From Alphaproteobacteria bacterium (GTDB lineage Bacteria > Pseudomonadota > Alphaproteobacteria > Rs-D84): 28,149 nucleotides of DNA. The stretch lies in the NCBI GenBank assembly GCA_009783855.1, contig WRCO01000015.1, positions 1-28,149 of the forward strand, given 5' to 3'. Under the pieces are notes generated by a model. The model made no database searches, was not told the origin of the DNA, and saw only the letters and a program-made list of their open reading frames with translations. Below are positions 2,164-26,602 of this stretch, in pieces. Each line of letters opens with the position of its first letter. Positions within the stretch are counted from its first letter, which is position 1. The position numbers and the translations under genes were made by a program.

Positions 2164-3693
2164 TTACTTTTGATTAACACCTTTCACCAAAGCAAATTTT
2201 TCAATCACTTCTTTCATCGTATCGATAAAGCCTTTGCCATCGGCCGCGTTTTTAAGCGCGGTATCCGCCGCCCCAAGCTTGGTCGCGAATTCAGGCGTGA
2301 ACAAATCACCAACCGATTGCAAGCCCGATTGAACGCTGCCACCGGTATTCGCAACGACGCTGATGTTGGCTTTTTCAAGCGCCTTAGCTTGTTCGACTCC
2401 GACAAGCGCATTTTGTTTGGCGCGTTCAATCTCAACATCGGCGTTACGCTGTACAGTTTCAAGGTTGACCAGATATTCCTGATAGCCTTTGTTTTCGCCA
2501 ATCTTTTCCGCCAAAGTCGTTTCCGCTGTAACGCGCGCCAACTGCATCTGCTTTTCGGCATCCGCGGCGGCCGTTCCGACTTCTTTGACACCCTTTGCTT
2601 CCGCCATTTTTGCAGCGATTACTGCGTCCGCGTCTTTCTTGGCCGCATCAAGTTTGGCGGTCGCGATTGTTTCGACATTATATTTTTCCGCATCGGTTTG
2701 GATTTGGATTTGTTCCCTTTCCGCTTCGGTATCTATAATACGTTTTTCTTTGTCTTGGTTAGCCTGGATGATTGTTTGCTTTTTGACCGTTTCGGCATCA
2801 ATGACCGCTTTTTCTTGGTCTATCTGGGCCTGGGTCAGCGCTTTTACCTTTTCAACGGCAAGGTCTTTTTCCGCAGTGGTTTTTGCGGATTCGGCAATTT
2901 CTTGTTTTGATTTTTCTTGCGCGATTCCGATCAATTGGTCGCGTTCTGCTTCCTTTTCGCCGACGATGCGGGCGGTGTCCGCCTTTTTGACATCAACTTC
3001 TTGCGCTGCTTCGATTTCCGCGGTTTCGGCCAGTTTTTTGTTTTCAGCAACTGTCACGCGGCTGTCCTTTTCGATTTCAGACATTTTCTTGGCCATGATA
3101 TTCGCTATGACGCTTGACCCGGCGCTGTCACGAATGTCCATCAGTTCGATGTTTTTGACCGCCACCACGCCCCATTCTTTCAACTGTTCGCTGACCGCGT
3201 CGGTGAACTGTTGTCCGTATTTAGAGCGTTCTTCCATAATTTCCTGGAGCGGCGCTTTTGCCATGATGTTACGAACGGCGCCTTGGACGATAGCCGCCAA
3301 GTGCCCTTTCAATTCGTCGAACGACGATACTCTTTCTGCGGCCCGGTCGGTGTCGGATATGCGGAAGAATGTGTGTATGTCGACTACGAACGGCACGCGG
3401 TCCTGGTCGTACGCTTCGTATCTGTCGATAAGAATATTAAAGTTGGTCACGGGCAGTTCCTTTACATCCACGCCAAGCACGGGAATCCATTTCGGCCATT
3501 CGTAGTACACGTTTCCATGAGAACTCTCTTTACCATAAGAAGTCGTCTTTTTCCGGGTCTGCACAATGTGCATCTTGTCGACCGGCACGATTGTGCGCCA
3601 GGACAGAATTTTTCCGGCGGTGATGATGGCGGTAAGCGACGGAAGCCCAACCGCAACCCCAAGTCTTATAATTTCATTCATATTTCCAATCAT
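2164..3693 (-). CDS. Flotillin / SPFH (band 7) domain protein (YqiK-like)
   Basis: 509 aa; N-terminal membrane anchor, SPFH-like region then long charged EA-rich coiled-coil (KEAERDQL...AEKDLAVEKVKAL) typical of bacterial flotillins; SD aaggaaag before ATG. Confidence 0.75.
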   Translation of the reverse strand: MIGNMNEIIRLGVAVGLPSLTAIITAGKILSWRTIVPVDKMHIVQTRKKTTSYGKESSHGNVYYEWPKWIPVLGVDVKELPVTNFNILIDRYEAYDQDRVPFVVDIHTFFRISDTDRAAERVSSFDELKGHLAAIVQGAVRNIMAKAPLQEIMEERSKYGQQFTDAVSEQLKEWGVVAVKNIELMDIRDSAGSSVIANIMAKKMSEIEKDSRVTVAENKKLAETAEIEAAQEVDVKKADTARIVGEKEAERDQLIGIAQEKSKQEIAESAKTTAEKDLAVEKVKALTQAQIDQEKAVIDAETVKKQTIIQANQDKEKRIIDTEAEREQIQIQTDAEKYNVETIATAKLDAAKKDADAVIAAKMAEAKGVKEVGTAAADAEKQMQLARVTAETTLAEKIGENKGYQEYLVNLETVQRNADVEIERAKQNALVGVEQAKALEKANISVVANTGGSVQSGLQSVGDLFTPEFATKLGAADTALKNAADGKGFIDTMKEVIEKFALVKGVNQK

Positions 3694-5227: not shown

Positions 5228-5665
5228 TTATCTTTTCCTCTGCGGCAAAGGCACCGGCACCGCGAACCGAATGCCAACGTTGGGATTTCGGACCGCATCT
5301 TGCAACCTCTTGGTGGACAAATCGGTCATATTAAGGTCAAGGTCGATATACGGCACTATGACGCCCCGCCTTATAAGCGCGTCAATCTTTTTATAAAATC
5401 GCCAATCGCCGCCAATCGGGGGCACATATATTTTTTGGCGGCGGACGTAATCCAGCGTTACGGACATATGCCGGTCTTCTTTGTCGCATGGCCAAATCTG
5501 GTATTCGCATGTAAGGGAAAAGTGATTCTTCCACACCGGCTTTTTATCAAACCCGCCAAGCGTATCGGTAAGCGTCTTGTTCTCTTGCGCCGGGATAACC
5601 TTTGCGATGAAAAGCATCAAGAATACAAGCGCAAGCGTATTAAAAGAATTCCTTGTAAACCGCAT
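5228..5665 (-). CDS. Hypothetical secreted protein (signal peptide)
   Basis: 145 aa; N-terminal MRFTRNSFNTLALVFLMLFIAKVIPAQE signal-like segment; no recognised domain. Confidence 0.45.
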   Translation of the reverse strand: MRFTRNSFNTLALVFLMLFIAKVIPAQENKTLTDTLGGFDKKPVWKNHFSLTCEYQIWPCDKEDRHMSVTLDYVRRQKIYVPPIGGDWRFYKKIDALIRRGVIVPYIDLDLNMTDLSTKRLQDAVRNPNVGIRFAVPVPLPQRKR

Positions 5666-5779
5666 CCGGGCATTTTAGACAAACAAATCCCGATGTCAAA
5701 GTAAAAGTTAGATTGGAATTTGATGACACAGAAAATCATATTGACGAGGCTTTCGATTTTTTACTAAGATAGACCGAGA

Positions 5780-6586
5780 ATGAACACGCAATTTCATAAA
5801 AATCTTAATCGAATGGCTTTGTTTACCGCGCTTGTCGCGGCGGGGATTGTCTTTTTCCACGAAGAATTCATCGCCATCGCGCTTAACAACATCTGGCTTA
5901 ACGGCGTTATTATCGGCGCGACTTTGTTCGGCATCGGGCTTTGCTTTATGGATATGTTCCGCCTTCTTCCCGAATACACATGGCTTCACAAATTCTTTTA
6001 CACTCCGGCGCGGACCGCCGAATTGCCGCCGCGCCTGTTCCGCCCGATTGCAATCATATTGAACCGCGCGAAAACCGACCGCAACCATTATATATCGCCC
6101 CAGACTTTGGATAACTTCCTTAACATAATACTGGGCCGATTCGAAGACAGCCGCGAAGCGGTCCGGTACATTACGAATACTTTGATATTCCTTGGGCTGC
6201 TTGGAACATTCTGGGGGCTTATCACGACCGTCGGCGGATTTGGGGAATTGATGTCCGCGATGGATTTCACCGACGACGCCATCATGACCACGATGCAGCA
6301 TAATCTTGCCGTGCCGCTTTCCGGCATGGGCACGGCGTTTTCGACTTCGCTTCTTGGTCTTGGCGGGTCGCTTATCGTCGGATTTCTGGGACTTCAGGCA
6401 TCGCTTGCCCAGAATGCCATATTCCGCGAATTGGAAGAAAACCTTTCCGACCGCGCGCGCCTGTTCGGATTTCTTGGCACCGGCAATCATGGTTATGACG
6501 GCGCGCTTCCATACGTCAACGCGGCGGCGCGGGATTTATCGAAATCTATCGACCGATTGGAAAAGACGATTGGGAAACTTAAATAA
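5780..6586 (+). CDS. MotA/TolQ/ExbB-family proton-channel protein (4 TM, large TM2-TM3 cytoplasmic loop)
   Basis: 268 aa; TM pattern 2+2 with ~100-aa loop; LGLLGTFWGLITT and ...MGTAFSTSLLGLGGSLIVGFLG resemble MotA/TolQ channel helices. Confidence 0.65.
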   Translation: MNTQFHKNLNRMALFTALVAAGIVFFHEEFIAIALNNIWLNGVIIGATLFGIGLCFMDMFRLLPEYTWLHKFFYTPARTAELPPRLFRPIAIILNRAKTDRNHYISPQTLDNFLNIILGRFEDSREAVRYITNTLIFLGLLGTFWGLITTVGGFGELMSAMDFTDDAIMTTMQHNLAVPLSGMGTAFSTSLLGLGGSLIVGFLGLQASLAQNAIFRELEENLSDRARLFGFLGTGNHGYDGALPYVNAAARDLSKSIDRLEKTIGKLK

Positions 6587-6601
6587 GGGGACAAGAGAGA
6601 G

Positions 6602-7768
6602 ATGTTAAAATACAGAGTCAAGGAGAGAACAAACACATGGCCCGGTTTTGTGGACTTGTTTTCCAACCTTGTCATCATACTTATATTTCTGCTTATCGTG
6701 TTTGTGTTTCTTTGGGCGACGACGAACGTATTCGGGACAAGCGGCGGCATCCGTCAGATTGCCTCGCTTACAAGACAGAACATCGAAAAGACCGAAGAGC
6801 TTGAACAACTTCGCATAAGCGAAGAGCGCGCACGCGAACTTTTGATACTTGCCCACAGCGCGCTGCAGGCGCTTGAAGAAGATAACCAGGCATTGCACGA
6901 AGGCATGCACATTGCCCTTGCGGAAAGCGTGGAGCGGGAACACTTGCTTGACGTGACGAACGCGACGCTTTCCGAACTTGTCGCAAGTTACGAACAGAAA
7001 CTTCACGACATGCGAAGCGGCGAGGCGTCGATGCGCGAAATAATCCAAACGTTGGAAGAACAGCTTCGCGTTACCACGCACGACCAGCGATTGCAGACCG
7101 GCGAACTTGAAACTCAGCGCCAGACGCTTGCGGCGGAACTTGCCCGCATGAATGCGTTGCTTGGCGCGGCAGAGGCGCAATCGGCCGCACAGGAAGTGCG
7201 ATACGTCGAACTGTCGACGCGGCTTAACCGCGCGCTTGCCGACAAAGTCGCGGAACTTTCCCAGATGCAGGACAACCTTATGGATGCGGAAATGCGCGCG
7301 GCGTTGATGGGTCAATTCCAATCGGAATTCTATCGCGCCATACGCACGACGCTTGCGGGACTTCCCGGCGTCGACGTGTCAAGCGACCGGTTTTTGATTT
7401 CAAGCGATATATTGTTCGCGGTCGGCTCGTTCGCGCTTTCACCGGATGGAAGACAGCAAATCGGACTTATCGCGCGCGTCATAAGCGAATTGGAAGAAAA
7501 AATTCCACAGGGCACCCAATGGATAATCCGCGTCGACGGGCATACGGACATACAGCCGGTCGTACTTGGAAACCGCGGATTCCGGAACAATACCGAATTG
7601 TCGCTTTTGCGCGCACAGGCAGTAGTGAACGAGCTTGTCCGCGCAGGCGTGCAACAGCGCCGCCTTATACCGTCCGGATTCGGCGAATTGTTCCCGATTG
7701 CCGAAGACACCGACCCGGCGTCATTGCAAAAAAACCGCCGCATAGAATTGCGGTTGACAAACCCGTAA
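6602..7768 (+). CDS. MotB/OmpA-like peptidoglycan-binding protein with N-terminal TM and ~200-aa coiled-coil linker
   Basis: 388 aa; WPGFVDLFSNLVIILIFLL TM, heptad-rich Q/E/L region (res 50-250), C-terminal OmpA-like domain (...NRGFRNNTELSLLRAQAVVNEL...NRRIELRL); SD aagggga; 15-bp after upstream gene. Confidence 0.65.
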   Translation: MLKYRVKERTNTWPGFVDLFSNLVIILIFLLIVFVFLWATTNVFGTSGGIRQIASLTRQNIEKTEELEQLRISEERARELLILAHSALQALEEDNQALHEGMHIALAESVEREHLLDVTNATLSELVASYEQKLHDMRSGEASMREIIQTLEEQLRVTTHDQRLQTGELETQRQTLAAELARMNALLGAAEAQSAAQEVRYVELSTRLNRALADKVAELSQMQDNLMDAEMRAALMGQFQSEFYRAIRTTLAGLPGVDVSSDRFLISSDILFAVGSFALSPDGRQQIGLIARVISELEEKIPQGTQWIIRVDGHTDIQPVVLGNRGFRNNTELSLLRAQAVVNELVRAGVQQRRLIPSGFGELFPIAEDTDPASLQKNRRIELRLTNP

Positions 7769-7815: not shown

Positions 7816-9879
7816 TCAATCATGCGTTTTCTGCAAAAACTTTGCAATATTCTGGTCGCCGATTATCCGCGACATTCTGACTTTAATCAATCCTTGGTCC
7901 GCAAGTTTGGCCAAGATTTGCGGACGGCGGTCTTTAAGTTCGTCTATTATGATGTCTTCCATTTTATCCCGAGGCCGTCCGCAAAGATAACGCAATGTGT
8001 ATGGGCGTCCGCCTTTGTTTTTCCAAAGCCGCGCGGCAATGTAATGGGTCAATAATCTGTTTTCTGAAAAAGTAATGAAACTTGCATTTGTGCACAGCAC
8101 TTCGAAAATATCTTTTTCGTTTTTTCTTTTGGCCGCGGGCGACTGCAAAGCAAATGCTTTTTTATCATTCATCGCGACGAACAGGTTGAATCGGCTTATG
8201 ATGGTTTCGGATTTCATGGTAAGCAACGCCGGATTTACTATCGTCGCCCTCAGATACCGCTCTAACGATATATGCGGCGTGAATGCTTCGACAACCCCCT
8301 TGATATTGCGTTCCACCGTATCGGGAGAAGTGGTAAACAGCATTGCCGTTCTCATCGCAACATGCAGATATTGTTCGACCGGCATGTGCGGCGCGAATTT
8401 TTCCACCGCGCCGTTTATGTTGCTTATTATCTTGTCCGGCGACCTGCTGAACAATTCCAACAATGGCGCCTTTGCGGCAGTCTTTATATATTTTTCAAGC
8501 GTCAGCCCGGCGCGCCTAAATTCTTCAACAACGCCCATTATGTTGCGTTCTACAACACGCGGGGAAATGCTGAACAGCCAGGGATTGCTCATCGCTATCT
8601 TCGTATACTGCGCCAAAGTCGGGCCGCCCACATGTTCGAATTTTTCAACGACACCCTTTATATTGCCCACCACTGTATCGGACGATTGAGCCAACAGGTT
8701 GGGATATTTTTTCACAAGTTGCAAATATTGCGCGCGATTGGACCCCAGCTGTTCTGTAAATTCGTTCATCTTTCCTTCAAGTGTGTCCGGTGACCGAGTA
8801 AACAATGACGGCGCGCTTATCGCCATTTTCACAATTTGCGCGAACGAAAGTTCCGGCGCAAATTTTTCGGCGATTCCTTTTATATTGCGCTCTATTGTTT
8901 CGGGTAAGATGCAAAGCAGTTGCGGGACGTATTCCGCCGCTTTGATATATTGCCCAAGCGATATGTGCGGCGCAAATTTTTCCACAACGCCTTTTATATT
9001 TCGCTCTATTGTTTCCGGGTGAAGAGAAAGCGTCCTTGGGGCAGTTTCCATCATCTTCAAATATTTTTCCAACGTCAAATGCGGCGCGAATATTTCAACG
9101 GTGGCGTTTATGTGGCGTTCTATCAAATCGGGCGATGCCGTAAGCAATTGCGGAGATTTTTCCGCCATCCGCAAATATTTGCGCAAGCTCAGGCCCGCAT
9201 GCGCGAACCTTGCCACGACTTCGTTGGTCACTTCGTCTATTTTGCGGTCCGCTCTGTCGGACAGTTGAACATCCGGCGACGACCATTTCAGTTTCCCTTT
9301 GCGCAAAGCGTATATCGACACTGGGCCGGTCGGCTTTCCGGATTGTTCGCCGGCTTTGGCAAACTCCGCCCATCCAAGAATTCCGGCAACCTTTTCACGG
9401 TCGAACATTTTGTCAAACAGTTCCGGGGCCGAAAGCGCCGCCGACAAAGCCTGTGCGCGGGTAAGCGGTGGGAATTCTTTGACCAGGGCACCTATGTTAT
9501 ATCCCGCCATCCTGGGCGAAAGGGTAAACAGCACCGGATTTTCCAGCGCCGCCCGCCGATACCTTGGCCACGTCAGGCCGTCTCTTTCGAATTGCCGGAC
9601 CATCCCGTCCACAACATATTCCATTTCATCAACCGACATGGAAAGCAGCGACGGCATCTTTGTCACTATTTGCAGGCAATACGAATGCGACAAATCAAAG
9701 AATGCAAGCATATCGTCGAAAGTTTTCCTGAAATTCAAACGAAAGCCGTTTTTTTCGATTTGTGTTTTGGTAAACTCGTCATTTATCAATTTTTCTGCGA
9801 CATCGTCTATGGTGTCTTTTGGGAATCCCGAAATTGTCATAAGCTGCAATTTGACCTGGGTCTTTAGATTGTTTGTCAT
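7816..9879 (-). CDS. Large tandem-repeat protein: >=12 copies of ~37-aa helical repeat (P-x-LL-x-x-SP-[DE]-T-[IV]-E-R-N-I-K-G-V-V-E-K-F-A-P-H-x-S-L-x-x-Y-L-K), mTERF-like
   Basis: 687 aa; repeats read directly (e.g. PQLLCILPETIERNIKGIAEKFAPELSFAQIVKMAISA); spacing of P-LL, I-x-x-V-x-x-F and L-x-x-I matches mTERF-type motif (inference). Confidence 0.6.
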   Translation of the reverse strand: MTNNLKTQVKLQLMTISGFPKDTIDDVAEKLINDEFTKTQIEKNGFRLNFRKTFDDMLAFFDLSHSYCLQIVTKMPSLLSMSVDEMEYVVDGMVRQFERDGLTWPRYRRAALENPVLFTLSPRMAGYNIGALVKEFPPLTRAQALSAALSAPELFDKMFDREKVAGILGWAEFAKAGEQSGKPTGPVSIYALRKGKLKWSSPDVQLSDRADRKIDEVTNEVVARFAHAGLSLRKYLRMAEKSPQLLTASPDLIERHINATVEIFAPHLTLEKYLKMMETAPRTLSLHPETIERNIKGVVEKFAPHISLGQYIKAAEYVPQLLCILPETIERNIKGIAEKFAPELSFAQIVKMAISAPSLFTRSPDTLEGKMNEFTEQLGSNRAQYLQLVKKYPNLLAQSSDTVVGNIKGVVEKFEHVGGPTLAQYTKIAMSNPWLFSISPRVVERNIMGVVEEFRRAGLTLEKYIKTAAKAPLLELFSRSPDKIISNINGAVEKFAPHMPVEQYLHVAMRTAMLFTTSPDTVERNIKGVVEAFTPHISLERYLRATIVNPALLTMKSETIISRFNLFVAMNDKKAFALQSPAAKRKNEKDIFEVLCTNASFITFSENRLLTHYIAARLWKNKGGRPYTLRYLCGRPRDKMEDIIIDELKDRRPQILAKLADQGLIKVRMSRIIGDQNIAKFLQKTHD

Positions 9880-16111: not shown

Positions 16112-16162
16112 GCGCACGCCGAACCACCCATCACGAACTTTGTTCGCGTCGGGGCCCGGTAT

Positions 16163-16236
16163 TGGGACGTAGTTTAACGGTAGAACAGCAGACTCTGACT
16201 CTGTTGGTTGGGGTTCGAATCCCTGCGTCCCAACCA
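16163..16236 (+). tRNA. tRNA-Gln (anticodon CTG)
   Basis: Manual fold: 7-bp acceptor (TGGGACG/CGTCCCA), D-arm GTTT/GAAC with GG loop, anticodon stem GCAGA/TCTGT, loop CTCTGAC (U33-CUG-A37), T-loop GGTTCGAATCC, encoded CCA. Confidence 0.75.
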
Positions 16237-16275
16237 GCTGTTCAAACCACAGGTGTTTACAAAATATGGGCCTTT

Positions 16276-16289
16276 CCCCCCCCCCCCCC
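16276..16289. repeat. Homopolymeric C14 tract between tRNA-Gln and glycosyltransferase start
   Basis: tttCCCCCCCCCCCCCCtcgc; 64 nt upstream of ATG 16354 and in the same continuous reading frame as the GT gene. Confidence 0.95.
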
Positions 16290-16353
16290 TCGCTTATACC
16301 TTTACCTGTTTTCGCTGATTCACAGGCGTTTTGTCGGTTTTGTATGCGGACTT

Positions 16354-17259
16354 ATGCCGGCGAAGTCTTTGGCCGTAAAAGTTGAAAGATTCCTTTATCT
16401 TTGCCGCCGACGTTTCAGGTCGGAAGCCGCCGCGGAATTTCCAAATTTCCTTTCCATCGTCTGCATCTCGAAAAACGAAGGACTTTATTTCAGGGAATTC
16501 ATAGAATTCCACCGCATGGTCGGTGTTGATAAATTCTATGTATACGACAATGAATCCGACGACGGCACCCGCGAAATTTTGGAACCGTATGTCAAAGCCG
16601 GCATCGTGGAATATATCTGTTGGCCGGGCAAAGCACAGCAACGTATCGTTTACAACCACGCGCTTTTGAAATATCGTTTCGACACCAAATGGATGGCCGT
16701 TGTTGATTTGGACGAATTCATCGTCCCGGTTGCGGATAAAACGGTCGCGGATTATTTGCGCCGCACGCCGCCATATGTGACACAGGTTGTCATCGGATGG
16801 GTGAATTATGGCTCTGGCGGGCATGAGGCGGCGCCACGCGGCCTTGTCATCGAAAATTTCAAAATGCGCATCGCGGACCCGTGCGACAAGAATGCATTCC
16901 AGCCGCGGCATGTAAAGGGAATCATAAATCCGCGGCACGTTGTAAAAGTGCGATGCCATCGTCACAAACACCTTGGGCTGGACGACGTTTCGTCCGACCC
17001 GGAGCGCAACAATTTCGGGACATGGCCGCTTCGCGTCAATCATTATCAATCCAAATCATGGGAAGAGTTTGCGAAAAAGAAAGCGCGCGGTTCGGCAAGC
17101 CCTGTGGCCCATGCCGACAATCATTTCCGCGTGGATAAAAATCAAGTTTTGGTCCGGCTGTATTCGCGCGAATGGTTTGACAGGCTTGACACGAACGATG
17201 TCAAAGATTCGATTATGGATAAACATATCGCAAAGTTGAAAAACATCTGCCCGGTATGA
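16354..17259 (+). CDS. Glycosyltransferase, GT92 (DUF23)-like
   Basis: LSIVCISKNEGLYFREFIEFHRMVGVDKFYVYDNESDDGT pattern typical of bacterial GT92 proteins; start set at first ATG after C-tract. Confidence 0.6.
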   Translation: MPAKSLAVKVERFLYLCRRRFRSEAAAEFPNFLSIVCISKNEGLYFREFIEFHRMVGVDKFYVYDNESDDGTREILEPYVKAGIVEYICWPGKAQQRIVYNHALLKYRFDTKWMAVVDLDEFIVPVADKTVADYLRRTPPYVTQVVIGWVNYGSGGHEAAPRGLVIENFKMRIADPCDKNAFQPRHVKGIINPRHVVKVRCHRHKHLGLDDVSSDPERNNFGTWPLRVNHYQSKSWEEFAKKKARGSASPVAHADNHFRVDKNQVLVRLYSREWFDRLDTNDVKDSIMDKHIAKLKNICPV

Positions 17260-21691: not shown

Positions 21692-21747
21692 GCTGGGAAT
21701 AATATCACAAATTGATATTTATGTCAAAGAGCGGTATCATAAACATC

Positions 21748-21777
21748 TTGACAAACATTTGAAGCGGGGTGTATAAA
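21748..21777 (+). promoter_or_regulatory. Sigma70-like promoter TTGACA-18bp-TATAAA for paralog pair
   Basis: perfect TTGACA (21748-21753), TATAAA (21772-21777), SD aaggat before ATG 21803. Confidence 0.5.
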
Positions 21778-21802
21778 CCAACATAATCCAAAGGATATAA
21801 AG

Positions 21803-22078
21803 ATGACGATGGAAGAAACAGCTTTTATTAGCCGAGTCAACGCATGGCTTAAAACACATTCGCCGACATTTGCCGAAACCCCCATTCGCGGCGGCGAGAC
21901 AATTGTCACTATGTACAACATCGGCAACCATATAACACTGGAACGCCAAGTAACGGACGAATACATAGAATACAGCGGCGGGATAAACGACGGGGGCAGA
22001 TTCCGCACGTTCCGTCAAAGGACGCTTAAACAGGCATTCAACCTTGCCGCCGCCGCACATGCAAGAATAAAAGCATAA
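21803..22078 (+). CDS. Hypothetical small protein (paralog 1)
   Basis: 91 aa; good SD; N-terminus MTMEETAFISRVNAWLKT parallels next gene. Confidence 0.45.
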   Translation: MTMEETAFISRVNAWLKTHSPTFAETPIRGGETIVTMYNIGNHITLERQVTDEYIEYSGGINDGGRFRTFRQRTLKQAFNLAAAAHARIKA

Positions 22079-22081
22079 AGC

Positions 22082-22708
22082 GTGACGTGGTCGGATGAAC
22101 AATTTATCGAACAAGTGCGCGGCTTTCTTAACAAGCCGGACAGGACGACGGACGAAATAAGAACATCCGGCGCAACCGCGTACATTATAAAATGCAAAGA
22201 CGGCCTGATAAGCCTTGAAACACACAAAGCCGGGCACCGCTTTGTAATATGCGGAAACAACCGTTCGACTTTGGACACGGAAATGCCGGGGATAAGCAAG
22301 ACAGCAATCGCGCGGGCGTACGGCATGGCGAACCTTGCGCATCGGCGCGACCGGTCGCACCGCCCTGTGACAAAAGAGCAAACGGCGGCGCAATTATTAT
22401 TGGAATTAACGGAATCCGATGTCGTGCCAAGAAATAAATTTCTTTCCGACCTTCAAAGAAACCTTCAGCATCCGCAATGGAAAATCGACCTTTGGCACAT
22501 TGAAAACCGCCACCCCGACATCATAGTATGCTGGGTCGATGGTTACAGTCTTGAATGCCACCGCACGGAAAAGGCAATCGAATACAAAATCACATGGATG
22601 GACAACCGCGATGCGTCCCGCCCGCGGCTTGGGCATGAAACGCTTCGCGCGGCATGCAATATGATTGCATCCGCGTTTATAAACAGACAGCGGTACGGAC
22701 GCGGGTAA
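22082..22708 (+). CDS. Hypothetical protein (paralog 2 with ~110-aa C-terminal extension); GTG start
   Basis: 208 aa; MTWSDEQFIEQVRGFLNK... aligns with paralog 1 over first ~90 aa; opposite-strand 218-aa ORF judged antisense artefact. Confidence 0.45.
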   Translation: MTWSDEQFIEQVRGFLNKPDRTTDEIRTSGATAYIIKCKDGLISLETHKAGHRFVICGNNRSTLDTEMPGISKTAIARAYGMANLAHRRDRSHRPVTKEQTAAQLLLELTESDVVPRNKFLSDLQRNLQHPQWKIDLWHIENRHPDIIVCWVDGYSLECHRTEKAIEYKITWMDNRDASRPRLGHETLRAACNMIASAFINRQRYGRG

Positions 22709-22712
22709 AATA

Positions 22713-23309
22713 TCACCGCGCCTTTTCTTTATACAACGTTTCGACCAATTCCATCACAGGCCGCACGCCGATGTCGAAAAATTTCATCTGGCCGATACTG
22801 TTCGAAATCATATATGAATGAAACAATCTGCATCCGGCGAAGGAAATGTCAAAGTAATACGGCCCCCCGTCCAAAACGCCGTCAAGATAGTTAAGGACAT
22901 CCCCGTTCGTCGGATTATGGATAACATACCCGGTAAGCCCAAGCTTTTCATGCCTTATCAGATATTTTACGACAACGGTGTCGTCTTTTTTCACATAGTC
23001 GTTATAAAGCATCCGGTCAAGCGCGTCTTCGGAATCCGCGGCGCAAACAATGCGTTCTATGGGATAAATCTCTGCAAGCGATTTCACGGTTTCAAGACTG
23101 AGGGTTTCGAACTTTTCTATCGCCGCCTTCACCAACCGCTTGCGCTTAAGCATTCTTTTGTAAAAGTTTCGCAGCACGGTATTGACGGGCTGCCAGCCCA
23201 ATTCCGCCCTGGATCCTGCGCGCTCTACGCGCATGCATTCTACCATAAACTTGCATACAATCGTTTTTGCCCTCTCTTGCGCCGAAATGATGTCGGTGTT
23301 GGAATTCAT
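22713..23309 (-). CDS. Hypothetical protein (second gene of 2-gene operon)
   Basis: 198 aa; start ATG overlaps upstream stop (TGAtATG). Confidence 0.45.
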   Translation of the reverse strand: MNSNTDIISAQERAKTIVCKFMVECMRVERAGSRAELGWQPVNTVLRNFYKRMLKRKRLVKAAIEKFETLSLETVKSLAEIYPIERIVCAADSEDALDRMLYNDYVKKDDTVVVKYLIRHEKLGLTGYVIHNPTNGDVLNYLDGVLDGGPYYFDISFAGCRLFHSYMISNSIGQMKFFDIGVRPVMELVETLYKEKAR

Positions 23310-23310
23310 A

Positions 23311-24225
23311 TCATCGTACTATCGTGCATCTTGTCGCAATCATGCACCGTGCGCCCACGTCCTCGACAGCGGCGTACGGCACGTGGACTTTGACCGGCCT
23401 GCCCGAATCAATCCGTTCGCGGCCGTCGTAATACGAACCTTTGCCGAATGCCTCTTGCCATCTTTGTTCGGTGAAGACTTCTATCTTTTTCGGCGGGAAT
23501 TTTTTTGTGCCGGCGGTGATTTCTCTGAACCAGCTTATGTTGCAAACCGTCGAAGTCGGAATCTCCGCCAATTCATACGTTATTTCGCCGTCAAGGCCGA
23601 TGATGGCGTATGTTTTTTCGATTTTTTCCCGGGGGTTCTCCCATGACTGATTCTGTGCTATGTACCCGATGACGTAACCCTGCATCAATACGAATCCTTT
23701 GACGGCGAATTCGGTATCGGAAAAGCCCGGGTATGCCAAAACGAACCTTTTCGACGCCGAATCCAGTTCGCCAAGGTATCCGCGCATCGCCGGTCCGTAC
23801 AAATTCTTTTGATATTGCAGTGTCGGCTTGTCCAGAATATTTTTGTCATCCTTGGCATGCGCAAGCCAGAAATTATAATAAGCATTCGGATGTATGATTC
23901 CGTCGACCATCCAGAAGTTTGTCATAATTTGTAATTTCCTATAGAAGTCTTCGCCGGCATTCCGGAATATAATGTCGCAGAACAGGTTTTGTTCCACAAT
24001 CTTGTTTATATTCTGTGTATATTCGTTCATGAAACTTTCCGGAAAATTTATGCCGCGGCAAGTGAACGATTTCAAATCATACGCATTCATCCCGCTTGCT
24101 TTTCCCCTCAAGCCGGCTGGGTCGGCAAGGAATTCGGCAAAACTTTGGTATGTGCGGGCGTCGCAATTGTAATTCTTCGCTCTTTTCTTTATCGATTCAT
24201 TGACAAGTCGTATTGCTGTTTTCAT
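23311..24225 (-). CDS. Hypothetical protein (first gene of 2-gene operon)
   Basis: Start refined to MKTAIRLVNES with SD aaagagg 6 nt upstream; 304 aa; W/Y/F-rich, no domain recognised. Confidence 0.45.
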   Translation of the reverse strand: MKTAIRLVNESIKKRAKNYNCDARTYQSFAEFLADPAGLRGKASGMNAYDLKSFTCRGINFPESFMNEYTQNINKIVEQNLFCDIIFRNAGEDFYRKLQIMTNFWMVDGIIHPNAYYNFWLAHAKDDKNILDKPTLQYQKNLYGPAMRGYLGELDSASKRFVLAYPGFSDTEFAVKGFVLMQGYVIGYIAQNQSWENPREKIEKTYAIIGLDGEITYELAEIPTSTVCNISWFREITAGTKKFPPKKIEVFTEQRWQEAFGKGSYYDGRERIDSGRPVKVHVPYAAVEDVGARCMIATRCTIVR

Positions 24226-24462
24226 ATTGCGCCTCTTTTGAACGACCGCCGCGCCGCGCCGGTTTGTGGGCGCCATTGTATTATATAATTACATTTTGTC
24301 AAGCGTCGGACGACTTATAATCCCCTTACATATTTCTTGACTTCATTCCTGCGCGGGTATATCATTCCCGCATCTGATATTTACATACAGGGCGCGGGTG
24401 CCGTCGGCGCGCCGGCTGATGGGTTCGATGGAAATAAACAAACAACAAAAAGGAAAAGAAAC

Positions 24463-24999
24463 ATGAAGAATATGAAGAAAATTAATGTAAAGGATTTGGC
24501 GAAAGTGCTTAAAGTCGGCGGATGGATTGTCGCCGGCATGCCCGCGATTTGGGCGCTTGGCAACTTGTTGTCGCTTTCGGCCCTTGTGTCTTGCGTGCTT
24601 TTTATCGCGGTTCTTACGATTTCATTTCTGGACAGGAACTGGCTTAAAAAAGCGGGCAAAGATGTCAAGAAGATTGAAATCTGGTGGTGCCTTTTGCCGC
24701 CGGTTTATCTCTTCAAACGCGCAAAGCTTTTGGGCGGTAAATTGACCGCGGTTTGGATCTGGTCCGGACTTTTTGCGATTGGGCTTATCTTTGCGCTTAT
24801 TTCCGGTGGTAATAATCCGGCGGCGCAATTTAATGCGCAATGCATGCAGGGTCTGCGTTCCGACGCTCCGGTTGAAATCGCACAGAGATATTGCGATTGC
24901 ATGACGGAACTTGCCGCGCGGGTTAACTTTATTCCGGAAGTCCTTGCGAACCCGCAATTGCAACAGCATTGCGCGCGCGTCGCGATGAGATTGCAGTAA
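24463..24999 (+). CDS. Small membrane protein (3-4 TM) with Cys-rich C-terminal domain
   Basis: Start at ATG 24463 after aaaaggaaaag SD; TM helices; followed by terminator. Confidence 0.5.
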   Translation: MKNMKKINVKDLAKVLKVGGWIVAGMPAIWALGNLLSLSALVSCVLFIAVLTISFLDRNWLKKAGKDVKKIEIWWCLLPPVYLFKRAKLLGGKLTAVWIWSGLFAIGLIFALISGGNNPAAQFNAQCMQGLRSDAPVEIAQRYCDCMTELAARVNFIPEVLANPQLQQHCARVAMRLQ

Positions 25000-25020
25000 A
25001 GAAAAACAAACAAATAAAAA

Positions 25021-25041
25021 CCGCGCGCCGCGCGGTTTTTA
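25021..25041 (+). terminator. Intrinsic terminator CCGCGCGccgCGCGCGG + TTTTTAT
   Basis: aaaaaCCGCGCGCCGCGCGGttttta 20 nt after stop. Confidence 0.75.
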
Positions 25042-25261
25042 TTTACTCGGCGATTTGGTGGCAGGAACGTCCCTTATGAGACGAGAAGCGCACACATTGC
25101 AGGTCAAACCGCGATAACCACTTCTTCTTTTTTGTAGTCTAAATTGTATTTGAAAGTATTTCCGAACGGCAGAAAGTGACATATGCCGGACATAAGAAAT
25201 GAACATACTGCCGACATAAGCTAAACTATTTTTAGTAGCTTTTCAACGTGGTTTTTATATA

Positions 25262-25281
25262 TTGTCCACTATAGTGGACAA
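25262..25281. repeat. 20-bp perfect palindrome TTGTCCACTATAGTGGACAA; -35 (TTGTCC) of promoter with TATAAT at 25284-25289
   Basis: Exact palindrome; extended flank atat...atat; 77 bp upstream of ATG 25359. Confidence 0.9.
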
Positions 25282-25358
25282 TATATAATGGATGCTGTAA
25301 ATTGCTTTTCGTAAATATATGAATTACAATTACTCTCGAAAATTCAAAAGGAGATTTA

Positions 25359-26036
25359 ATGTTCGTACCTAATCTTGATTTGTTGCACAAAAGCTCTGAA
25401 AGACCCGAACGAGAGCCGTATATTGCGATATTCAGGAAAGGTGAGAAAATTTTGATATACATTGCGGAAAAGCATAGTGCCAACGAGTCTTTCGATATGA
25501 CGGATTTTTGTTTTTCGGACAAATCTCCGGCCGCACCGCAGGTAGTACTTGTAGAATTTGAGCGGTCCGGAAGAAAAGCAGGGACTGGCGAGATTCATGG
25601 CAACAATTTAGCCTATGCGGCCGCACGCGCCACAGAGTGCGGACTGCCGGTAATCTTTGCGGATTTATCTCGGGACGAATGTCTGGATGTTTGGCGTAAA
25701 AGGTATCCGGAACGCATATTTACGGATGAAGATTTGCGGAGAGCTCGAAGAACCGGTAGACCGAGCACAAACAAAGGCGAGGACAGTTTACTTTTATATG
25801 AACTTGAGTTATATGGTCGCGATCCTTTTATGGTAAAAAACATAGTGGCGGCATTAAACAAATATGAAGTCGTTTTGGCAGTATTTGGTGAAGGACATTA
25901 TCGCGCCCAAAGACTTGTTCTGGAAGACATTATGGGCAAGCCGGAATATATAAAAGATGTCCCGAATACGCGCGGCGATTTCAGCAATTGTAAAATTGTC
26001 CCGATAGATTTAGGTGTTACAATAGCAGAACGATAA
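25359..26036 (+). CDS. TraB/GumN/PrgY (Tiki-like) family protein
   Basis: 225 aa; YIAEKHS (cf. GTAHVS), PQVVLVEFERS (cf. PDvVavElc), C-terminal VLAVFGEGHY (cf. vvGagHl) match TraB-family landmarks (inference). Confidence 0.4.
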   Translation: MFVPNLDLLHKSSERPEREPYIAIFRKGEKILIYIAEKHSANESFDMTDFCFSDKSPAAPQVVLVEFERSGRKAGTGEIHGNNLAYAAARATECGLPVIFADLSRDECLDVWRKRYPERIFTDEDLRRARRTGRPSTNKGEDSLLLYELELYGRDPFMVKNIVAALNKYEVVLAVFGEGHYRAQRLVLEDIMGKPEYIKDVPNTRGDFSNCKIVPIDLGVTIAER

Positions 26037-26069
26037 ACTATTGTCCACTATAGTGGACAATAGTTTATC
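26032..26069. repeat. 38-bp perfect palindrome GATAAACTA-TTGTCCACTATAGTGGACAA-TAGTTTATC containing family palindrome; between convergent genes
   Basis: Exact; encloses TAA stop (26034-26036) of TraB-like gene; candidate bidirectional hairpin terminator. Confidence 0.9.
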
Positions 26070-26370
26070 TGATTTCGACTTGAAGTTTTATATCAAATAA
26101 ATTCAACAGACGTAAAATTGTTATAAATTCGGGATTGCCGTCCGATGATAGCATTTTATAAAATCCGCTTTTGGAAATTCCCAGTGTTTCAAAAATAGTA
26201 GAAATTCTGTGATGCGTTTTCGAGAGTTCTTTTAATACAGATTTAATTTTTTCTATATCCAAATTATCCAATGCGACGGATAGTTCGCCAATCAATTTTG
26301 GGTCGATTTCTTTATTTTTCAAAAAATGTTCCCGCTCAATCTTTGGCTTGGATAAAAGTGAAAAACGCAT
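26065..26370 (-). CDS. HigA-like addiction-module antidote protein (HTH; TIGR02684-type), orphan
   Basis: 101 aa; C-terminal ISTIFETLGISKSGFYKMLSSDGNPEFITILRLLNLFDIKLQV matches ...GLSRESLYKALS.GNP.FDTILKVLKALGLKL... of this family; no RelE/HigB-like partner upstream. Confidence 0.6.
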   Translation of the reverse strand: MRFSLLSKPKIEREHFLKNKEIDPKLIGELSVALDNLDIEKIKSVLKELSKTHHRISTIFETLGISKSGFYKMLSSDGNPEFITILRLLNLFDIKLQVEIR

Positions 26371-26405
26371 ATTGCTCTCCTTGGGCTATATGCATCATTA
26401 TAATG

Positions 26406-26425
26406 TTGTCCACTATAGTGGACAA
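26406..26425. repeat. 20-bp perfect palindrome TTGTCCACTATAGTGGACAA forming -35/spacer of HigA-like gene promoter (TATAAT at 26397-26402 on minus strand)
   Basis: Exact palindrome 36 bp upstream of start 26370; TTGTCC-17-TATAAT then SD aaggagag. Confidence 0.85.
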
Positions 26426-26541
26426 GCATTTAATTAACGCGGCATAAATAAAACAAAGACATAGTTGGAAAATATTGGTGTTTTTATAGTTTATGAGGTG
26501 GCGTTGCTTGCTACATATCCGGGACATAGAAATCGGAGATA

Positions 26542-26570
26542 TTGCCGACATATATCAAACTATTTTTAAT
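26542..26570 (+). promoter_or_regulatory. Sigma70-like promoter TTGCCG-17bp-TTTAAT inside conserved ~70-bp module, reading into palindrome 26582 and antisense to the HExxH gene
   Basis: Module ~78% identical to 25178-25247 upstream of TraB-like gene. Confidence 0.4.
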
Positions 26571-26581
26571 AGTTTTTTAAC

Positions 26582-26601: not shown

Positions 26602-26602
26602 A

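What the first reader, a model, noticed from the sequence alone, without database searches (positions are those of the whole stretch)
5780..7768. Stand-alone MotA/MotB-like stator pair in which the MotB homolog carries a ~200-residue coiled coil
A 268-aa MotA/TolQ/ExbB-type 4-TM protein is followed after 15 bp by a 388-aa protein with a MotB-like single TM, an uninterrupted heptad-rich Q/E/L/A segment of ~200 aa, and a C-terminal OmpA peptidoglycan-binding domain. No flagellar, Tol, TonB or gliding partners are adjacent: the neighbours are a ribosomal operon and a repeat protein. The coiled coil sits where canonical MotB has its short plug and linker. This recalls the Zorya ZorAB defence motor, but with the long helical extension on the B rather than the A subunit and no ZorC/D-like genes. 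It could be a PG-anchored ion-driven motor of unknown output: envelope tethering, a defence trigger or a secretion accessory.
Basis: partly seen in the sequence, partly recalled or inferred. Interest (0 to 1): 0.6.

Follow-up and report, generated by a model that had tools for sequence, protein, structure and literature searches.

The report
ZorAB-like motor with coiled-coil stalk
Two adjacent genes encode what looks like a small proton-driven membrane motor, anchored to the cell wall through an unusually long rigid stalk; the pair belongs to a large, conserved and apparently unstudied family of Alphaproteobacteria whose closest known relatives are the anti-phage Zorya motors rather than the flagellar ones.

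Summary
A (5780-6586, 268 aa) and B (6602-7768, 388 aa) lie 15 bp apart. B has one TM helix with an Asp conserved in 73 of 74 relatives, about 200 helical residues, and a MotB-type OmpA peptidoglycan-binding domain.

The pair is not an oddity of this contig. In 77 of 80 related genomes an A homologue is directly followed by a full-length B homologue. These include Bradyrhizobium, Azospirillum, Thauera and, separately, Sinorhizobium meliloti. B there is NCBIfam PRK09039, "peptidoglycan-binding protein".

A is specifically ZorA-like: 44-56 bits to ZorA profiles, where E. coli MotA and ExbB score nothing and TolQ 14.7. Its best fold match is Shewanella ZorA. It is not a canonical ZorA: four predicted TMs, no beta-hairpin, a short tail. 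No ZorC-G, flagellar, Tol or Ton genes lie nearby. Synteny is housekeeping, with no real plasmid or phage copies.

New here: the B linker is always long (154-322 aa), and its length varies in steps of seven residues (corrected p 5e-7). This points to a continuous, phase-preserving coiled coil.

Best reading: a constitutive, PG-anchored, proton-driven motor of presumed 5:2 stoichiometry. Its output is unknown; a role in the cell envelope is my guess. Nine literature searches found no paper on it.

The parts
5780..6586 (+). A subunit gene (268 aa): ZorA-like member of the MotA/ExbB/TolQ superfamily with four predicted TM helices
   Evidence: ORF. PADLOC ZorA1 2.7e-13 and ZorA3 3.9e-12. Foldseek best match is ZorA 8vvn_D. 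The 25-sequence family alignment is 57% identical per column on average. The N-terminal 11 residues (M1, F5, H6, L9, N10, R11) are nearly invariant, which supports this start over the 257-aa start in the public annotation.
6170..6400 (+). A residues 131-207: the channel-forming TM3, periplasmic loop and TM4 core, with motif GLLGTFWGL and invariant T143 (6206-6208) and S190 (6347-6349)
   Evidence: Invariant columns. This stretch aligns to Shewanella ZorA 149-231. ZorA Thr147 and Ser184 contact ZorB Asp26 (PMC11946911). Residue-level equivalence is inferred from the motif alignment.
6401..6583 (+). A residues 208-268: short cytoplasmic helical tail, with a disordered loop at 228-247 followed by helix 242-267
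   Evidence: AF2 secondary structure and pLDDT. The homologous tail is 105-225 aa in most family members. ZorA3 profile alignments extend into this region.
6602..7768 (+). B subunit gene (388 aa): diverged PRK09039-type protein with a TM helix, a coiled coil and an OmpA-like domain
   Evidence: ORF. NCBIfam NF006543 matches full length at E 4.8e-59, but 200.9 bits is below the 305 cut-off. AF2 model.
6641..6736 (+). B residues 14-45: the single TM helix with motif W-P-G-F-V-D; Asp18 is codon 6653-6655
   Evidence: Hydropathy 3.17. Helix 14-45 in the model. D18 is conserved in 73 of 74 members; W13 and V17 in 74 of 74.
6746..7354 (+). B residues 49-251: periplasmic helical stalk of about 200 residues. 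It has a variable, indel-rich part (about aa 100-138) and a strongly conserved part (aa 161-220 and 238-251)
   Evidence: Helices 49-160 and 167-251. No proline and L/E/A/R/Q-rich composition. Heptad contrast above all shuffles. Family-wide length quantised in sevens. Conservation profile.
7262..7312 (+). B residues 221-237: insertion (QMQDNLMDAEMRAALMG) shared only with the nearest relatives
   Evidence: Gapped in 85-99% of 74 family members. Present in P0002 and P0003, half-length in P0004-P0013, absent in the rest.
7370..7765 (+). B residues 257-388: OmpA/MotB-type peptidoglycan-binding domain with invariant DGHTD (312-316) and N330..L333-S334..R337-A338
   Evidence: Pfam OmpA 2.6e-12. Invariant columns. 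Foldseek matches DVU_2228 MotB-like at 1.3e-9 and H. pylori MotB at 30% identity and rmsd 2.0 A. PADLOC ZorB3 1.3e-21.
5741..5770 (+). Weak sigma-70-like promoter candidate upstream of A (TTGACG, 18 nt spacer, TAAGAT)
   Evidence: Consensus scan, 9 of 12 matches. The number of such sites in the region is not clearly above shuffles. Low weight.

Best explanation
A and B form an inner-membrane, proton-driven stator-type complex. A5B2 stoichiometry is presumed by analogy with the solved MotAB, ExbBD, TolQR and ZorAB complexes. The complex belongs to the ZorAB branch of the MotA/ExbB superfamily but is a constitutive, chromosomal, vertically inherited system of Alphaproteobacteria rather than a defence module.

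Two B chains would sit in the centre of an A pentamer and present Asp18 to the invariant Thr143/Ser190 pair of A as the protonatable site. Beyond the membrane the two B chains would continue as a long, continuous, register-preserving coiled coil. It has about 200 residues here and 154-322 across the family, always changing in heptad steps. It ends in a MotB-type OmpA domain that grips peptidoglycan.

With B fixed to the wall, proton flow would turn or power-stroke the A ring, whose conserved cytoplasmic loop and helical tail would be the output. Alternatively, torque or tension would pass along the B stalk to the wall. I consider a cell-envelope role most likely, meaning mechanical coupling or sensing between inner membrane and peptidoglycan.

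Shown here: gene pair, domain architecture, conserved residues, obligate pairing, family breadth, specific ZorA affinity, and heptad quantisation. Inferred: stoichiometry, ion, rotation and PG binding. Guessed: the envelope function.
For: Architecture.

Specific ZorA/ZorB affinity. A scores 47.5 bits to ZorA1 and Bradyrhizobium A scores 56.2 bits to ZorA3, with the alignment running into the tail. E. coli MotA and ExbB give no hit and TolQ only 14.7 bits. The only PDB sequence match is ZorA 8vvn, and the best Foldseek match is 8vvn_D. B's PG-binding domain scores 75 bits to ZorB3, against 34 bits for E. coli MotB.

Catalytic residues. B D18 is present in 73 of 74 members. A T143 and S190 are invariant. 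They align with the motifs that hold the ZorA Thr/Ser filter.

PG-binding motifs. DGHTD and NxxLSxxRA are invariant, and the fold matches MotB, PomB and MotS domains.

Obligate pairing. In 77 of 80 loci A is followed at once by a full-length B.

Housekeeping character. No conserved third gene was found. The commonest neighbours are suhB, efp, thiE, an ABC exporter and ribosomal protein genes. Only three 'plasmid' hits were found, all on 3.5-4.6 Mb replicons, and there were no phage hits. A has 1,918 relatives among 50%-identity cluster representatives.

Continuous coiled coil. 18 of 33 distinct Asp-to-domain distances fall in one residue class mod 7 (corrected p 5e-7), and every 7-residue step from 183 to 253 is occupied. 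Indels sit inside the first helix while the second helix is gap-free and conserved. A visible 7-residue duplication, KVAELQA|KTAELDN, occurs in two homologues.
Against: No complex was modelled or observed, so stoichiometry and rotation are by analogy only.

Pfam MotA_ExbB is below threshold for A. NCBIfam ZorA models are hit far below their cut-offs (22 bits against 500).

The TM segment of B has no detectable sequence similarity to MotB or ZorB TM helices. A profile search of the PDB gave only chance hits, and pairwise alignments were not above shuffles. Equivalence of Asp18 therefore rests on position and conservation.

A straight coiled coil of 154-322 residues would be about 21-46 nm. That is 2-5 times the roughly 9 nm inner membrane to PG distance quoted for E. 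coli. The simple 'stalk that reaches the wall' geometry does not fit unless the coil is tilted, bent, or lies along the wall. The AF2 monomer shows a break at 161-166.

Nothing here identifies an output partner. The envelope role is inference from context alone.
Confidence: 0.6

Rival explanations
1. It is a flagellar stator (MotAB/PomAB-type), as public annotations suggest ('flagellar motor protein MotA', 'chemotaxis protein MotB'), with the rest of the flagellar system elsewhere in the genome.
For: Source names. B's OmpA domain resembles MotB, MotS and PomB domains. A has four predicted TM helices, as MotA does.
Against: No NCBIfam MotA or PomA model is hit by A at E<=0.1. An HMM of the A family does not find E. 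coli MotA. MotA and PomA structures rank below ZorA, ExbB and TolQ, with TM-scores of 0.21-0.34. The cytoplasmic loop between TM2 and TM3 is about 70 residues, too small for the 4-5 helix torque interface that defines flagellar stators (PMC12505986). The linker is 200 helical, Gly/Pro-poor residues, not a roughly 50-residue Gly/Pro-rich plug plus linker. No flagellar gene appeared as a conserved neighbour in the 80 related loci, nor among the window ORFs that could be identified.
Confidence: 0.03
2. It is a Zorya-type anti-phage system, either a minimal or new subtype or an orphan ZorAB whose effectors are encoded elsewhere.
For: ZorA and ZorB are the best-matching profiles, and specifically so. 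ZorA is the best structural match. A carries a helical cytoplasmic tail in most family members.
Against: No ZorC, D, E, F or G-like gene is present, and no conserved third gene exists in 80 loci. Synteny with suhB, efp, thiE, an ABC exporter and ribosomal protein genes is conserved across orders, and identity falls off with taxonomic distance; both are typical of a core gene and not of a defence island. The pair is absent from real plasmids and from phages. NCBIfam ZorA cut-offs are missed by a wide margin. A has no beta-hairpin in its cytoplasmic domain and four rather than three predicted TMs. ZorB has no linker, whereas B has about 200 residues. All ZorA tail truncations abolished Zorya defence, yet this clade's tail is only about 60 residues.
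Confidence: 0.08
3. It is a Tol-Pal or Ton-like energiser. A/B would be a TolQR or ExbBD analogue, with B fusing the roles of TolR, the long helical TolA domain II, and Pal.
For: TolQ and ExbB are among the fold matches (TM-scores up to 0.55). The motif GLLGTFWGL resembles ExbB GLFGTVWGI. The layout of one TM, a long helix and a terminal domain recalls TolA; this rests on established knowledge and was not tested here.
Against: No TolQ, ExbB, TolR or ExbD NCBIfam model is hit. The family HMM gives only 8 bits to ExbB and nothing to TolQ. B carries an OmpA domain, not the TolR/ExbD fold. No tolA, tolB, pal, cpoB or tonB lies nearby in any locus.
Confidence: 0.05
4. It is a passive structural tether rather than a motor. 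B would be a coiled-coil spacer linking inner membrane to peptidoglycan, with A as a membrane partner or chaperone, and no ion flux would be needed.
For: The most striking feature is a long rigid spacer with heptad-controlled length, as in known periplasmic rulers. No output partner has been identified.
Against: A buried Asp in the single TM helix is kept in 73 of 74 members. The polar Thr/Ser pair and the GLLGTFWGL motif of A are invariant. Such conservation is hard to explain without ion translocation. The A-B pairing is obligate.
Confidence: 0.12

Closest known systems
ZorAB, the membrane motor of Zorya anti-phage systems (E. coli 8qyd; Shewanella 8vvn)
   Same: It is the best profile and fold match for A, and specifically so. 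The B partner has a TM Asp and a dimer-type OmpA/MotB PG-binding domain. The Thr and Ser facing the Asp are conserved. A continues after the last TM helix as a helical cytoplasmic tail.
   Different: No ZorC-G genes accompany the pair, and its context is core-genome. A has four predicted TMs against three, and no beta-hairpin. The A tail is 32-225 residues against about 500. B has a coiled coil of 154-322 residues where ZorB has no linker at all. NCBIfam ZorA cut-offs are not met.
NCBIfam PRK09039 (NF006542-NF006546), 'peptidoglycan-binding protein' of Alphaproteobacteria
   Same: The match to B is full-length, covering TM, coil and OmpA domain (E 4.8e-59). B homologues next to A homologues in Bradyrhizobium, Azospirillum and Thauera pass the curated cut-offs. 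The S. meliloti B homologue (locus L087) carries the PRK09039 product name 'peptidoglycan -binding protein' in its GenBank annotation.
   Different: Window B (200.9 bits) and its Enterousia-like relatives (243 bits) fall below the lowest cut-off of 305. They form a diverged clade with a different residue class of stalk length. The family carries no functional annotation beyond its name, and no curated model exists for the A partner.
Flagellar stator MotAB/PomAB
   Same: B has a single TM with an Asp near the cytoplasmic end and a C-terminal OmpA-like domain whose fold matches H. pylori MotB at 30% identity. A has four predicted TMs.
   Different: A lacks the large torque-generating cytoplasmic domain and is not found by MotA models. 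The linker is a 200-residue helix rather than a flexible plug plus linker. There is no flagellar context.
TolQR-TolA-Pal and ExbBD-TonB
   Same: They share the superfamily fold of A. They also share the idea of a long periplasmic element that carries inner-membrane energy outwards; TolA domain II is a long helix (established knowledge).
   Different: Here the long helix and the PG-binding domain are fused to the B subunit itself. No TolA, TolB, Pal or TonB genes are present, and no family-level sequence match exists.

Membership tests
MotA/ExbB/TolQ/ZorA superfamily (A subunit of 5:2 motors) | Two C-terminal TM helices forming the channel core (Pfam PF01618) and the superfamily fold | tested here: met
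   Pfam is below its gathering score (18.8 against 22.9). However, PADLOC ZorA1 gives 2.7e-13 over aa 124-227, and all top Foldseek PDB hits are ZorA, ExbB, TolQ, PomA or MotA at probability 0.8-1.0.
MotA/ExbB/TolQ/ZorA superfamily (A subunit of 5:2 motors) | Assembly as A5B2 around a B dimer, with ion-driven rotation | not testable with these tools
   Only monomer prediction is available. No multimer modelling or experiment could be run.
MotB/ExbD/TolR/ZorB-type B subunit | Single N-terminal TM helix with a conserved protonatable Asp near its cytoplasmic end, encoded directly downstream of A | tested here: met
   TM helix 14-45. D18 is present in 73 of 74 members. B lies directly downstream of A in 77 of 80 loci. 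Equivalence to MotB D32 or ZorB D26 is positional; sequence searches of the TM segment were uninformative.
Zorya system (ZorAB plus effectors) | ZorA/ZorB sequence family membership at curated thresholds | tested here: not met
   NCBIfam ZorA_4 gives 22.2 bits against a cut-off of 500, and ZorA_2 gives 12.6 against 100. The PADLOC hits cover only the TM core and the start of the tail.
Zorya system (ZorAB plus effectors) | Adjacent subtype-specific genes (ZorC/ZorD, ZorE, or ZorF/ZorG) | tested here: not met
   The neighbours are rpsF/rpsR/rplI, a 145-aa ORF and an mTERF protein, with no Zor hits in PADLOC. No conserved third gene exists in 80 loci.
Zorya system (ZorAB plus effectors) | Very long ZorA cytoplasmic tail (about 500 aa), three TMs, a beta-hairpin in the membrane-proximal domain, and ZorB PGBD fused to the TM without a linker (PMC11946911; PMC12505986) | tested here: not met
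   The tail is about 60 aa here and 32-225 aa in the family. Four TMs are predicted. The model contains no strands. The linker is about 200 aa.
Flagellar stator MotAB/PomAB (the 'FIT' clade of PMC12505986) | Expanded cytoplasmic torque-generating interface of at least four helices in A | tested here: not met
   The cytoplasmic loop is about aa 61-130 and holds one short helix (88-99) plus extensions of the TM helices. No MotA model is hit.
Flagellar stator MotAB/PomAB (the 'FIT' clade of PMC12505986) | Gly/Pro-rich plug plus linker of about 50 residues, followed by an OmpA-like PG-binding domain in B | tested here: not met
   The OmpA domain is present. The linker, however, is about 200 helical residues with no proline and only 10 Gly between residues 41 and 262.
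Flagellar stator MotAB/PomAB (the 'FIT' clade of PMC12505986) | Presence of a flagellar system in the same genome | not testable with these tools
   Only a 28-kb contig of the MAG is available. No flagellar gene was identified in it; nine ORFs had no Pfam match.
TolQR-Pal / ExbBD-TonB | TolQ/ExbB and TolR/ExbD family membership, with neighbouring tolA-tolB-pal or tonB | tested here: not met
   No NCBIfam TolQ, ExbB, TolR or ExbD hits at E<=0.1. The family HMM scores 8 bits to ExbB and nothing to TolQ or TolR. No such neighbours were found.
NCBIfam PRK09039 'peptidoglycan-binding protein' (NF006542-NF006546) | Whole-protein score at or above the curated equivalog cut-off | tested here: not met
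   The best score is 200.9 bits against 305 for NF006543. Homology is nevertheless full-length and unambiguous. Orthologous-position proteins in Bradyrhizobium (690 bits), Azospirillum (466) and Thauera (417) pass. I therefore file B as a diverged relative, not as an equivalog member.
OmpA-like peptidoglycan-binding domain (PF00691) | Pfam gathering score and conserved PG-contact motifs | tested here: met
   47.4 bits against 27.2. DGHTD and N..LS..RA are invariant in 30 sequences. PG binding itself was not tested.

The most novel reading that the evidence does not exclude
This family is a constitutive, housekeeping counterpart (sister or ancestor) of the Zorya defence motors. It would be a PMF-driven rotary or power-stroke machine in the core genome of Alphaproteobacteria, using a phase-locked periplasmic coiled coil up to about 45 nm long to couple the inner membrane mechanically to the cell wall. 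On this reading Zorya would have arisen by recruiting such an envelope-monitoring motor. The heptad-quantised stalk would be a new kind of torque- or tension-transmitting element in the periplasm.
Probability: 0.3. Interest if true: 0.8.

Novelty: new variant of a known kind. Interest (0 to 1): 0.6.

Why it matters
Every 5:2 ion-driven motor characterised so far defines a major envelope function: flagellar rotation, Tol, Ton, gliding and type IX secretion, or Zorya defence. This is a further conserved branch. A has 1,918 relatives among 50%-identity cluster representatives. It has a distinct architecture, and I found no published function for it.

It offers a testable route to two questions. 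First, where did the Zorya motor come from? Second, what can a stator-like unit do when it has no rotor genes beside it?

The heptad-quantised stalk gives a concrete structural prediction: the angular phase between the TM Asp and the PG-binding domain matters. Insertions of 7 residues against 3-4 residues would test it.

For annotation, the public names 'flagellar motor protein MotA' and 'chemotaxis protein MotB' are very probably wrong for these genes.

Tried and rejected
1. Literature. Nine full-text searches used PRK09039, combinations of motor-family names, ZorA-like/ZorAB-like, MotA-like/MotB-like with coiled coil, and the product-name phrases. None returned a paper on this family. Two recent surveys of stator homologues and periplasmic force transducers contain neither 'Alphaproteobacteria' nor 'coiled' in their text, and the passages I read do not mention this architecture. 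The library lacks most subscription papers, so this is absence of evidence only.

2. Sequence proof that B Asp18 equals MotB D32, ExbD D25 or ZorB D26. Local alignments of the TM region to E. coli MotB, TolR and ExbD were not above shuffles. A profile of the TM segment found only chance hits in the PDB, namely fumarate reductase C and PomA TM1. I rejected both as uninformative, so the equivalence stays positional.

3. A global 3.5-residue periodicity in the window's own coil. No peak was found. Local heptad contrast and family-level length quantisation carry the argument instead.

4. A helical hairpin for the B stalk, suggested by the break at 161-166 in the AF2 monomer. I consider it less likely. 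Indels lie inside the first helix with no matching indels in the second. Lengths also change in single-heptad steps rather than paired steps. Coordinates and PAE were not available to check the model.

5. The afdb50 fold library was unavailable, so no named UniProt homologues were retrieved.

6. A conserved third component. Clustering of all flanking ORFs in 80 loci found none that is universal. An extra upstream OmpA-domain gene occurs in 17 loci only.

7. A mobile-element or defence-island origin. I rejected it because tblastn found no real plasmid and no phage copies and composition around the pair is unremarkable.


Full report
OBSERVATION

A is 5780..6586 (268 aa). B is 6602..7768 (388 aa). 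They are separated by 15 bp, with AAGGGG ahead of the B start.

A has hydrophobic stretches at about 12-35, 38-60, 131-153 and 183-207. It is modelled as an all-helical protein with pLDDT 77.6.

B has one very hydrophobic segment. It is modelled with pLDDT 79 as a TM helix 14-45, helices 49-160 and 167-251, and an OmpA-type alpha/beta domain 257-388. Pfam OmpA scores 2.6e-12.

Between residues 15 and 254 of B there is no proline. L, E, A, R and Q make up 59% of aa 46-250. Local heptad contrast is above all 500 shuffles, although no single register persists.

The 28-kb window carries DsbA-like, RecO, an SPFH protein, rplI-rpsR-rpsF, a 145-aa ORF, A, B, an mTERF-repeat protein, Sua5, GroEL, tRNA-Gln, a GT92 glycosyltransferase, a methyltransferase, MipA and an MFS transporter, plus several ORFs without Pfam matches. 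No flagellar, Tol, Ton, gliding or Zor accessory gene was identified.

WHAT THE TWO PROTEINS ARE RELATED TO

A reaches Pfam MotA_ExbB only below threshold (18.8 against 22.9 bits). No NCBIfam MotA, PomA, TolQ or ExbB model is hit at E<=0.1. The only NCBIfam hits are ZorA models, far below their cut-offs.

Against PADLOC, A hits 13 ZorA profiles, the best being ZorA1 at 2.7e-13 and ZorA3 at 3.9e-12. B's C-terminal domain hits ZorB3 at 1.3e-21.

I checked that this is not a generic superfamily cross-hit. E. coli MotA and ExbB hit no ZorA profile at E<=0.01, and TolQ reaches only 14.7 bits. A homologues from Bradyrhizobium and Azospirillum reach 56 and 44 bits, with alignments that run past the last TM into the tail. 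E. coli MotB reaches 34 bits on ZorB3, against 75 for B.

A profile of the A family finds a single PDB sequence of the superfamily, a type I ZorA (8vvn, E 0.043). The A model's best Foldseek match is the same ZorA (8vvn_D, TM-score 0.50), followed by ExbB and TolQ. MotA and PomA rank lower. An HMM of the A family does not recover E. coli MotA, TolQ or ExbB.

B's PG-binding domain matches MotB-like DVU_2228, H. pylori MotB (30% identity, rmsd 2.0 A), MotS, PomB, YiaD, and the ZorB chains 8vvn_A and 8qyd_F.

A LARGE CONSERVED FAMILY, NOT A ONE-OFF

B matches NCBIfam PRK09039 ('peptidoglycan-binding protein', five equivalog models) over its full length at E 4.8e-59. At 200.9 bits it stays below the lowest cut-off of 305.

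Word-indexed searches gave more than 1,200 B and more than 4,500 A homologues, mostly from uncultured Alphaproteobacteria. An exhaustive search of 50%-identity representatives gave 1,918 A relatives at E<=1e-3, 840 at <=1e-10 and 161 at <=1e-30.

The best 80 range from gut 'Candidatus Enterousia' and similar MAGs (50-61% identity) to Bradyrhizobium, Nitrobacter, Azospirillum, Roseospira, Kordiimonas and Acetobacteraceae. A few are labelled Thauera, Azoarcus, Dokdonella or Desulfobacula, at 35-42% identity.

In 77 of the 80 loci, A is followed at once on the same strand by a B homologue; in all but a few this match runs from the TM helix to the OmpA domain. The other three contigs end shortly after A. 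B proteins of Bradyrhizobium (690 bits), Azospirillum (466) and Thauera (417) pass the PRK09039 cut-offs. None of their A partners has a curated model. The window pair is therefore a diverged orthologue of 'PRK09039 plus its MotA-like partner'.

CONTEXT

Clustering all flanking ORFs of the 80 loci shows no third universal gene.

- The rpsF-rpsR-rplI adjacency is confined to about 10 close relatives.
- Elsewhere the common neighbours are suhB (28 loci), an ABC exporter on the opposite strand (29), efp (13) and thiE (13).
- In 17 loci an additional upstream gene encodes a secreted protein with its own OmpA-like domain.
- In Sinorhizobium meliloti Ak57 the order is thiE, a sel1-repeat gene, suhB, A (368 aa), B (342 aa, 'peptidoglycan -binding protein'), an ABC gene, then rpmE.

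tblastn of A against 72,556 plasmid records found three hits, all on 3.5-4.6 Mb replicons. Against 50,697 phage records it found none. This is the signature of a vertically inherited core gene pair, not of a defence island.

FUNCTIONAL RESIDUES

B Asp18 lies in the motif W-P-G-F-V-D, five residues into the TM helix from the cytoplasmic side. It is kept in 73 of 74 members; W13 and V17 are kept in 74 of 74.

A's GLLGTFWGL (TM3) and TAFSTSLLGL (TM4) contain the invariant T143 and S190. These motifs align with the Shewanella ZorA segments that in E. coli ZorA hold Thr147 and Ser184. Those are the two residues that contact ZorB Asp26 and act as the ion filter (PMC11946911).

B's OmpA domain keeps DGHTD and N330..L333-S334..R337-A338 invariant. 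These are the usual PG-contact motifs of this domain family (established knowledge).

I could not show by sequence that Asp18 aligns with the MotB, ExbD or ZorB Asp. The equivalence is positional.

DIFFERENCES FROM CANONICAL ZorAB

E. coli ZorA has three TMs, a membrane-proximal domain with a beta-hairpin and Ca2+ sites, and a tail of about 500 residues. ZorB's PG-binding domain is fused to its TM helix without any linker.

Here A has four predicted TMs (the N-terminus is positively charged and two hydrophobic helices precede the cytoplasmic loop). Its model has no strand, and its tail is about 60 residues. B has about 200 helical residues between the TM helix and the domain.

Across the family the A tail is 32-225 residues (median 131). 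It is helical and E/A/R/Q/L-rich, with conserved motifs such as VPAYVQALLEQTAEN. The window clade has a truncated tail. 'Extension on B instead of A' is therefore a property of this clade; the family has extensions on both sides.

THE STALK

The B linker is long in every member: 154-322 residues, median 192.

I measured the distance from the TM Asp to the Asp of the conserved DRF at the start of the OmpA domain.

- In the diverse genomes, 55 of 74 proteins and 18 of 33 distinct lengths fall in one residue class mod 7. The binomial p, corrected for seven classes, is 5e-7.
- Every step of seven from 183 to 253 is occupied.
- The window's own clade uses classes 2 and 6 mod 7. These differ by 4, which is the same as 11 or 18 residues and thus preserves helical phase. 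The window itself is 244, in class 6.

Indels concentrate at aa 100-138. Residues 161-220 and 238-251 are gap-free and strongly conserved, for example L187, L208, N209, A211-L212-A213, V216, E218, L219, S241 and F243. A literal heptad duplication, KVAELQA|KTAELDN, is visible in two homologues. The window's segment 221-237 is an insertion shared only with its nearest relatives.

Single-heptad steps, and indels inside one helix without compensation in the other, argue for a continuous parallel coiled coil that preserves the angular phase between the TM helix and the PG-binding domain. They argue against a symmetric hairpin, despite the break at 161-166 in the monomer model.

There is a difficulty. 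A straight coil of this size would be about 21-46 nm, well beyond the roughly 9 nm inner membrane to PG gap quoted for E. coli. The stalk must then be tilted or bent, lie along the wall, or reach PG at a distance.

MECHANISM (COMMITTED, WITH STATUS)

Shown here: architecture, pairing, conserved polar residues, specific ZorA/ZorB affinity, housekeeping context and stalk quantisation.

Inferred by analogy with solved 5:2 motors: A5B2 assembly, proton flow through Asp18 and the T143/S190 pair, and movement of A relative to a wall-anchored B dimer.

Guessed: the output. It may go through A's conserved cytoplasmic loop (LPPRLLRP, RFEDxRE) and tail, or through the B stalk to the wall. I favour an envelope role.

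Confidence is about 0.6 for 'constitutive PG-anchored ZorAB-like ion-driven motor' and much lower for any specific physiological role.

Rivals:
- Flagellar stator, 0.03.
- Zorya-type defence, 0.08.
- Tol/Ton orthologue, 0.05.
- Passive tether without ion flux, 0.12.

NOVELTY AND LITERATURE

Nine full-text searches found no study of this family.

The recent classification of stator homologues contrasts two groups. Flagellar units have a large torque interface, a Gly/Pro-rich plug plus linker, and an OmpA-like domain. Generic transporters have a condensed cytoplasmic domain and no OmpA homology. Zorya is treated as a remote outlier (PMC12505986).

The present family combines a condensed cytoplasmic domain, an OmpA-type domain and a 150-320-residue Gly/Pro-poor coiled coil. 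That paper's main text contains neither 'coiled' nor 'Alphaproteobacteria', and the passages I read do not mention such a combination; I did not read it in full.

B is catalogued in NCBIfam and named only by its domain. A is variously and probably wrongly named 'flagellar motor protein MotA'.

I rate the finding a new variant of a known kind, with interest 0.6. The window itself adds a diverged member. The family-level picture is what deserves follow-up.

Noticed in passing
window 7816-9879 (-): A 687-aa protein made of mTERF repeats (Pfam PF02536, 1.5e-11). This family is typical of mitochondria and plastids and unusual in bacteria. The gene is convergent with B and is present in the same position in three other metagenomic contigs that carry the identical B protein.
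   Followed up: partly
window 5228-5665 (-): A 145-aa ORF with an N-terminal signal-peptide-like segment and no hit in the Pfam, NCBIfam or PADLOC scans (PHROGs was not searched). It sits between rpsF and A, where close relatives have rpsF only about 510 bp upstream of A. Public gene calls give it 129 aa. An 11-of-12 sigma-70-like promoter match (5699-5672, minus strand) lies just upstream of it.
   Followed up: partly
window 5780-5812: The public annotation starts A at Met12 (257 aa). The 11 upstream residues (M1, F5, H6, L9, N10, R11) are nearly invariant across 25 homologues, so the 268-aa start is probably correct.
   Followed up: yes
L034:6780-7913 and 16 other related loci: In 17 of the 80 related loci, a gene directly upstream of A encodes a secreted protein with a long low-complexity region and its own C-terminal OmpA-like domain (Pfam OmpA 5.6e-13; weak CpaD-like hit). 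It may be a lineage-specific third component. It is absent from the window.
   Followed up: partly
window 16162-17259 (+) and 16163-16236 (+): The mechanical ORF for a GT92/GT2 glycosyltransferase (365 aa from a TTG) overlaps tRNA-Gln(CTG) at its 5' end. The real start must lie downstream; the Pfam domain begins at about residue 98.
   Followed up: no
window about 25000-28149: GC content drops to 0.36-0.42, against about 0.50 elsewhere. The ORFs here and at 21737-24999 have no Pfam match. This may be a horizontally acquired or fast-evolving segment.
   Followed up: no
window 2164-3693 (-): A 509-aa SPFH/Band 7 protein lies immediately downstream of rplI. The adjacency is conserved in another contig carrying the same genes (L084).
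   Followed up: no
L005:7986-9173, L006:7995-9143: Two gut or rumen relatives at 54% identity have A ORFs of 382-395 aa with long tails, whereas other close relatives have 249-273 aa. Tail loss therefore seems recent and confined to a subclade, unless these long ORFs are read-through artefacts.
   Followed up: no
L010 (Patescibacteria group MAG), L056 (Desulfobacula MAG), L040/L075 (Thauera/Azoarcus), L063 (Dokdonella): Full A-B pairs occur in a few genomes labelled as non-Alphaproteobacteria. Some may be binning errors and others real lateral transfers. I did not examine this.
   Followed up: no
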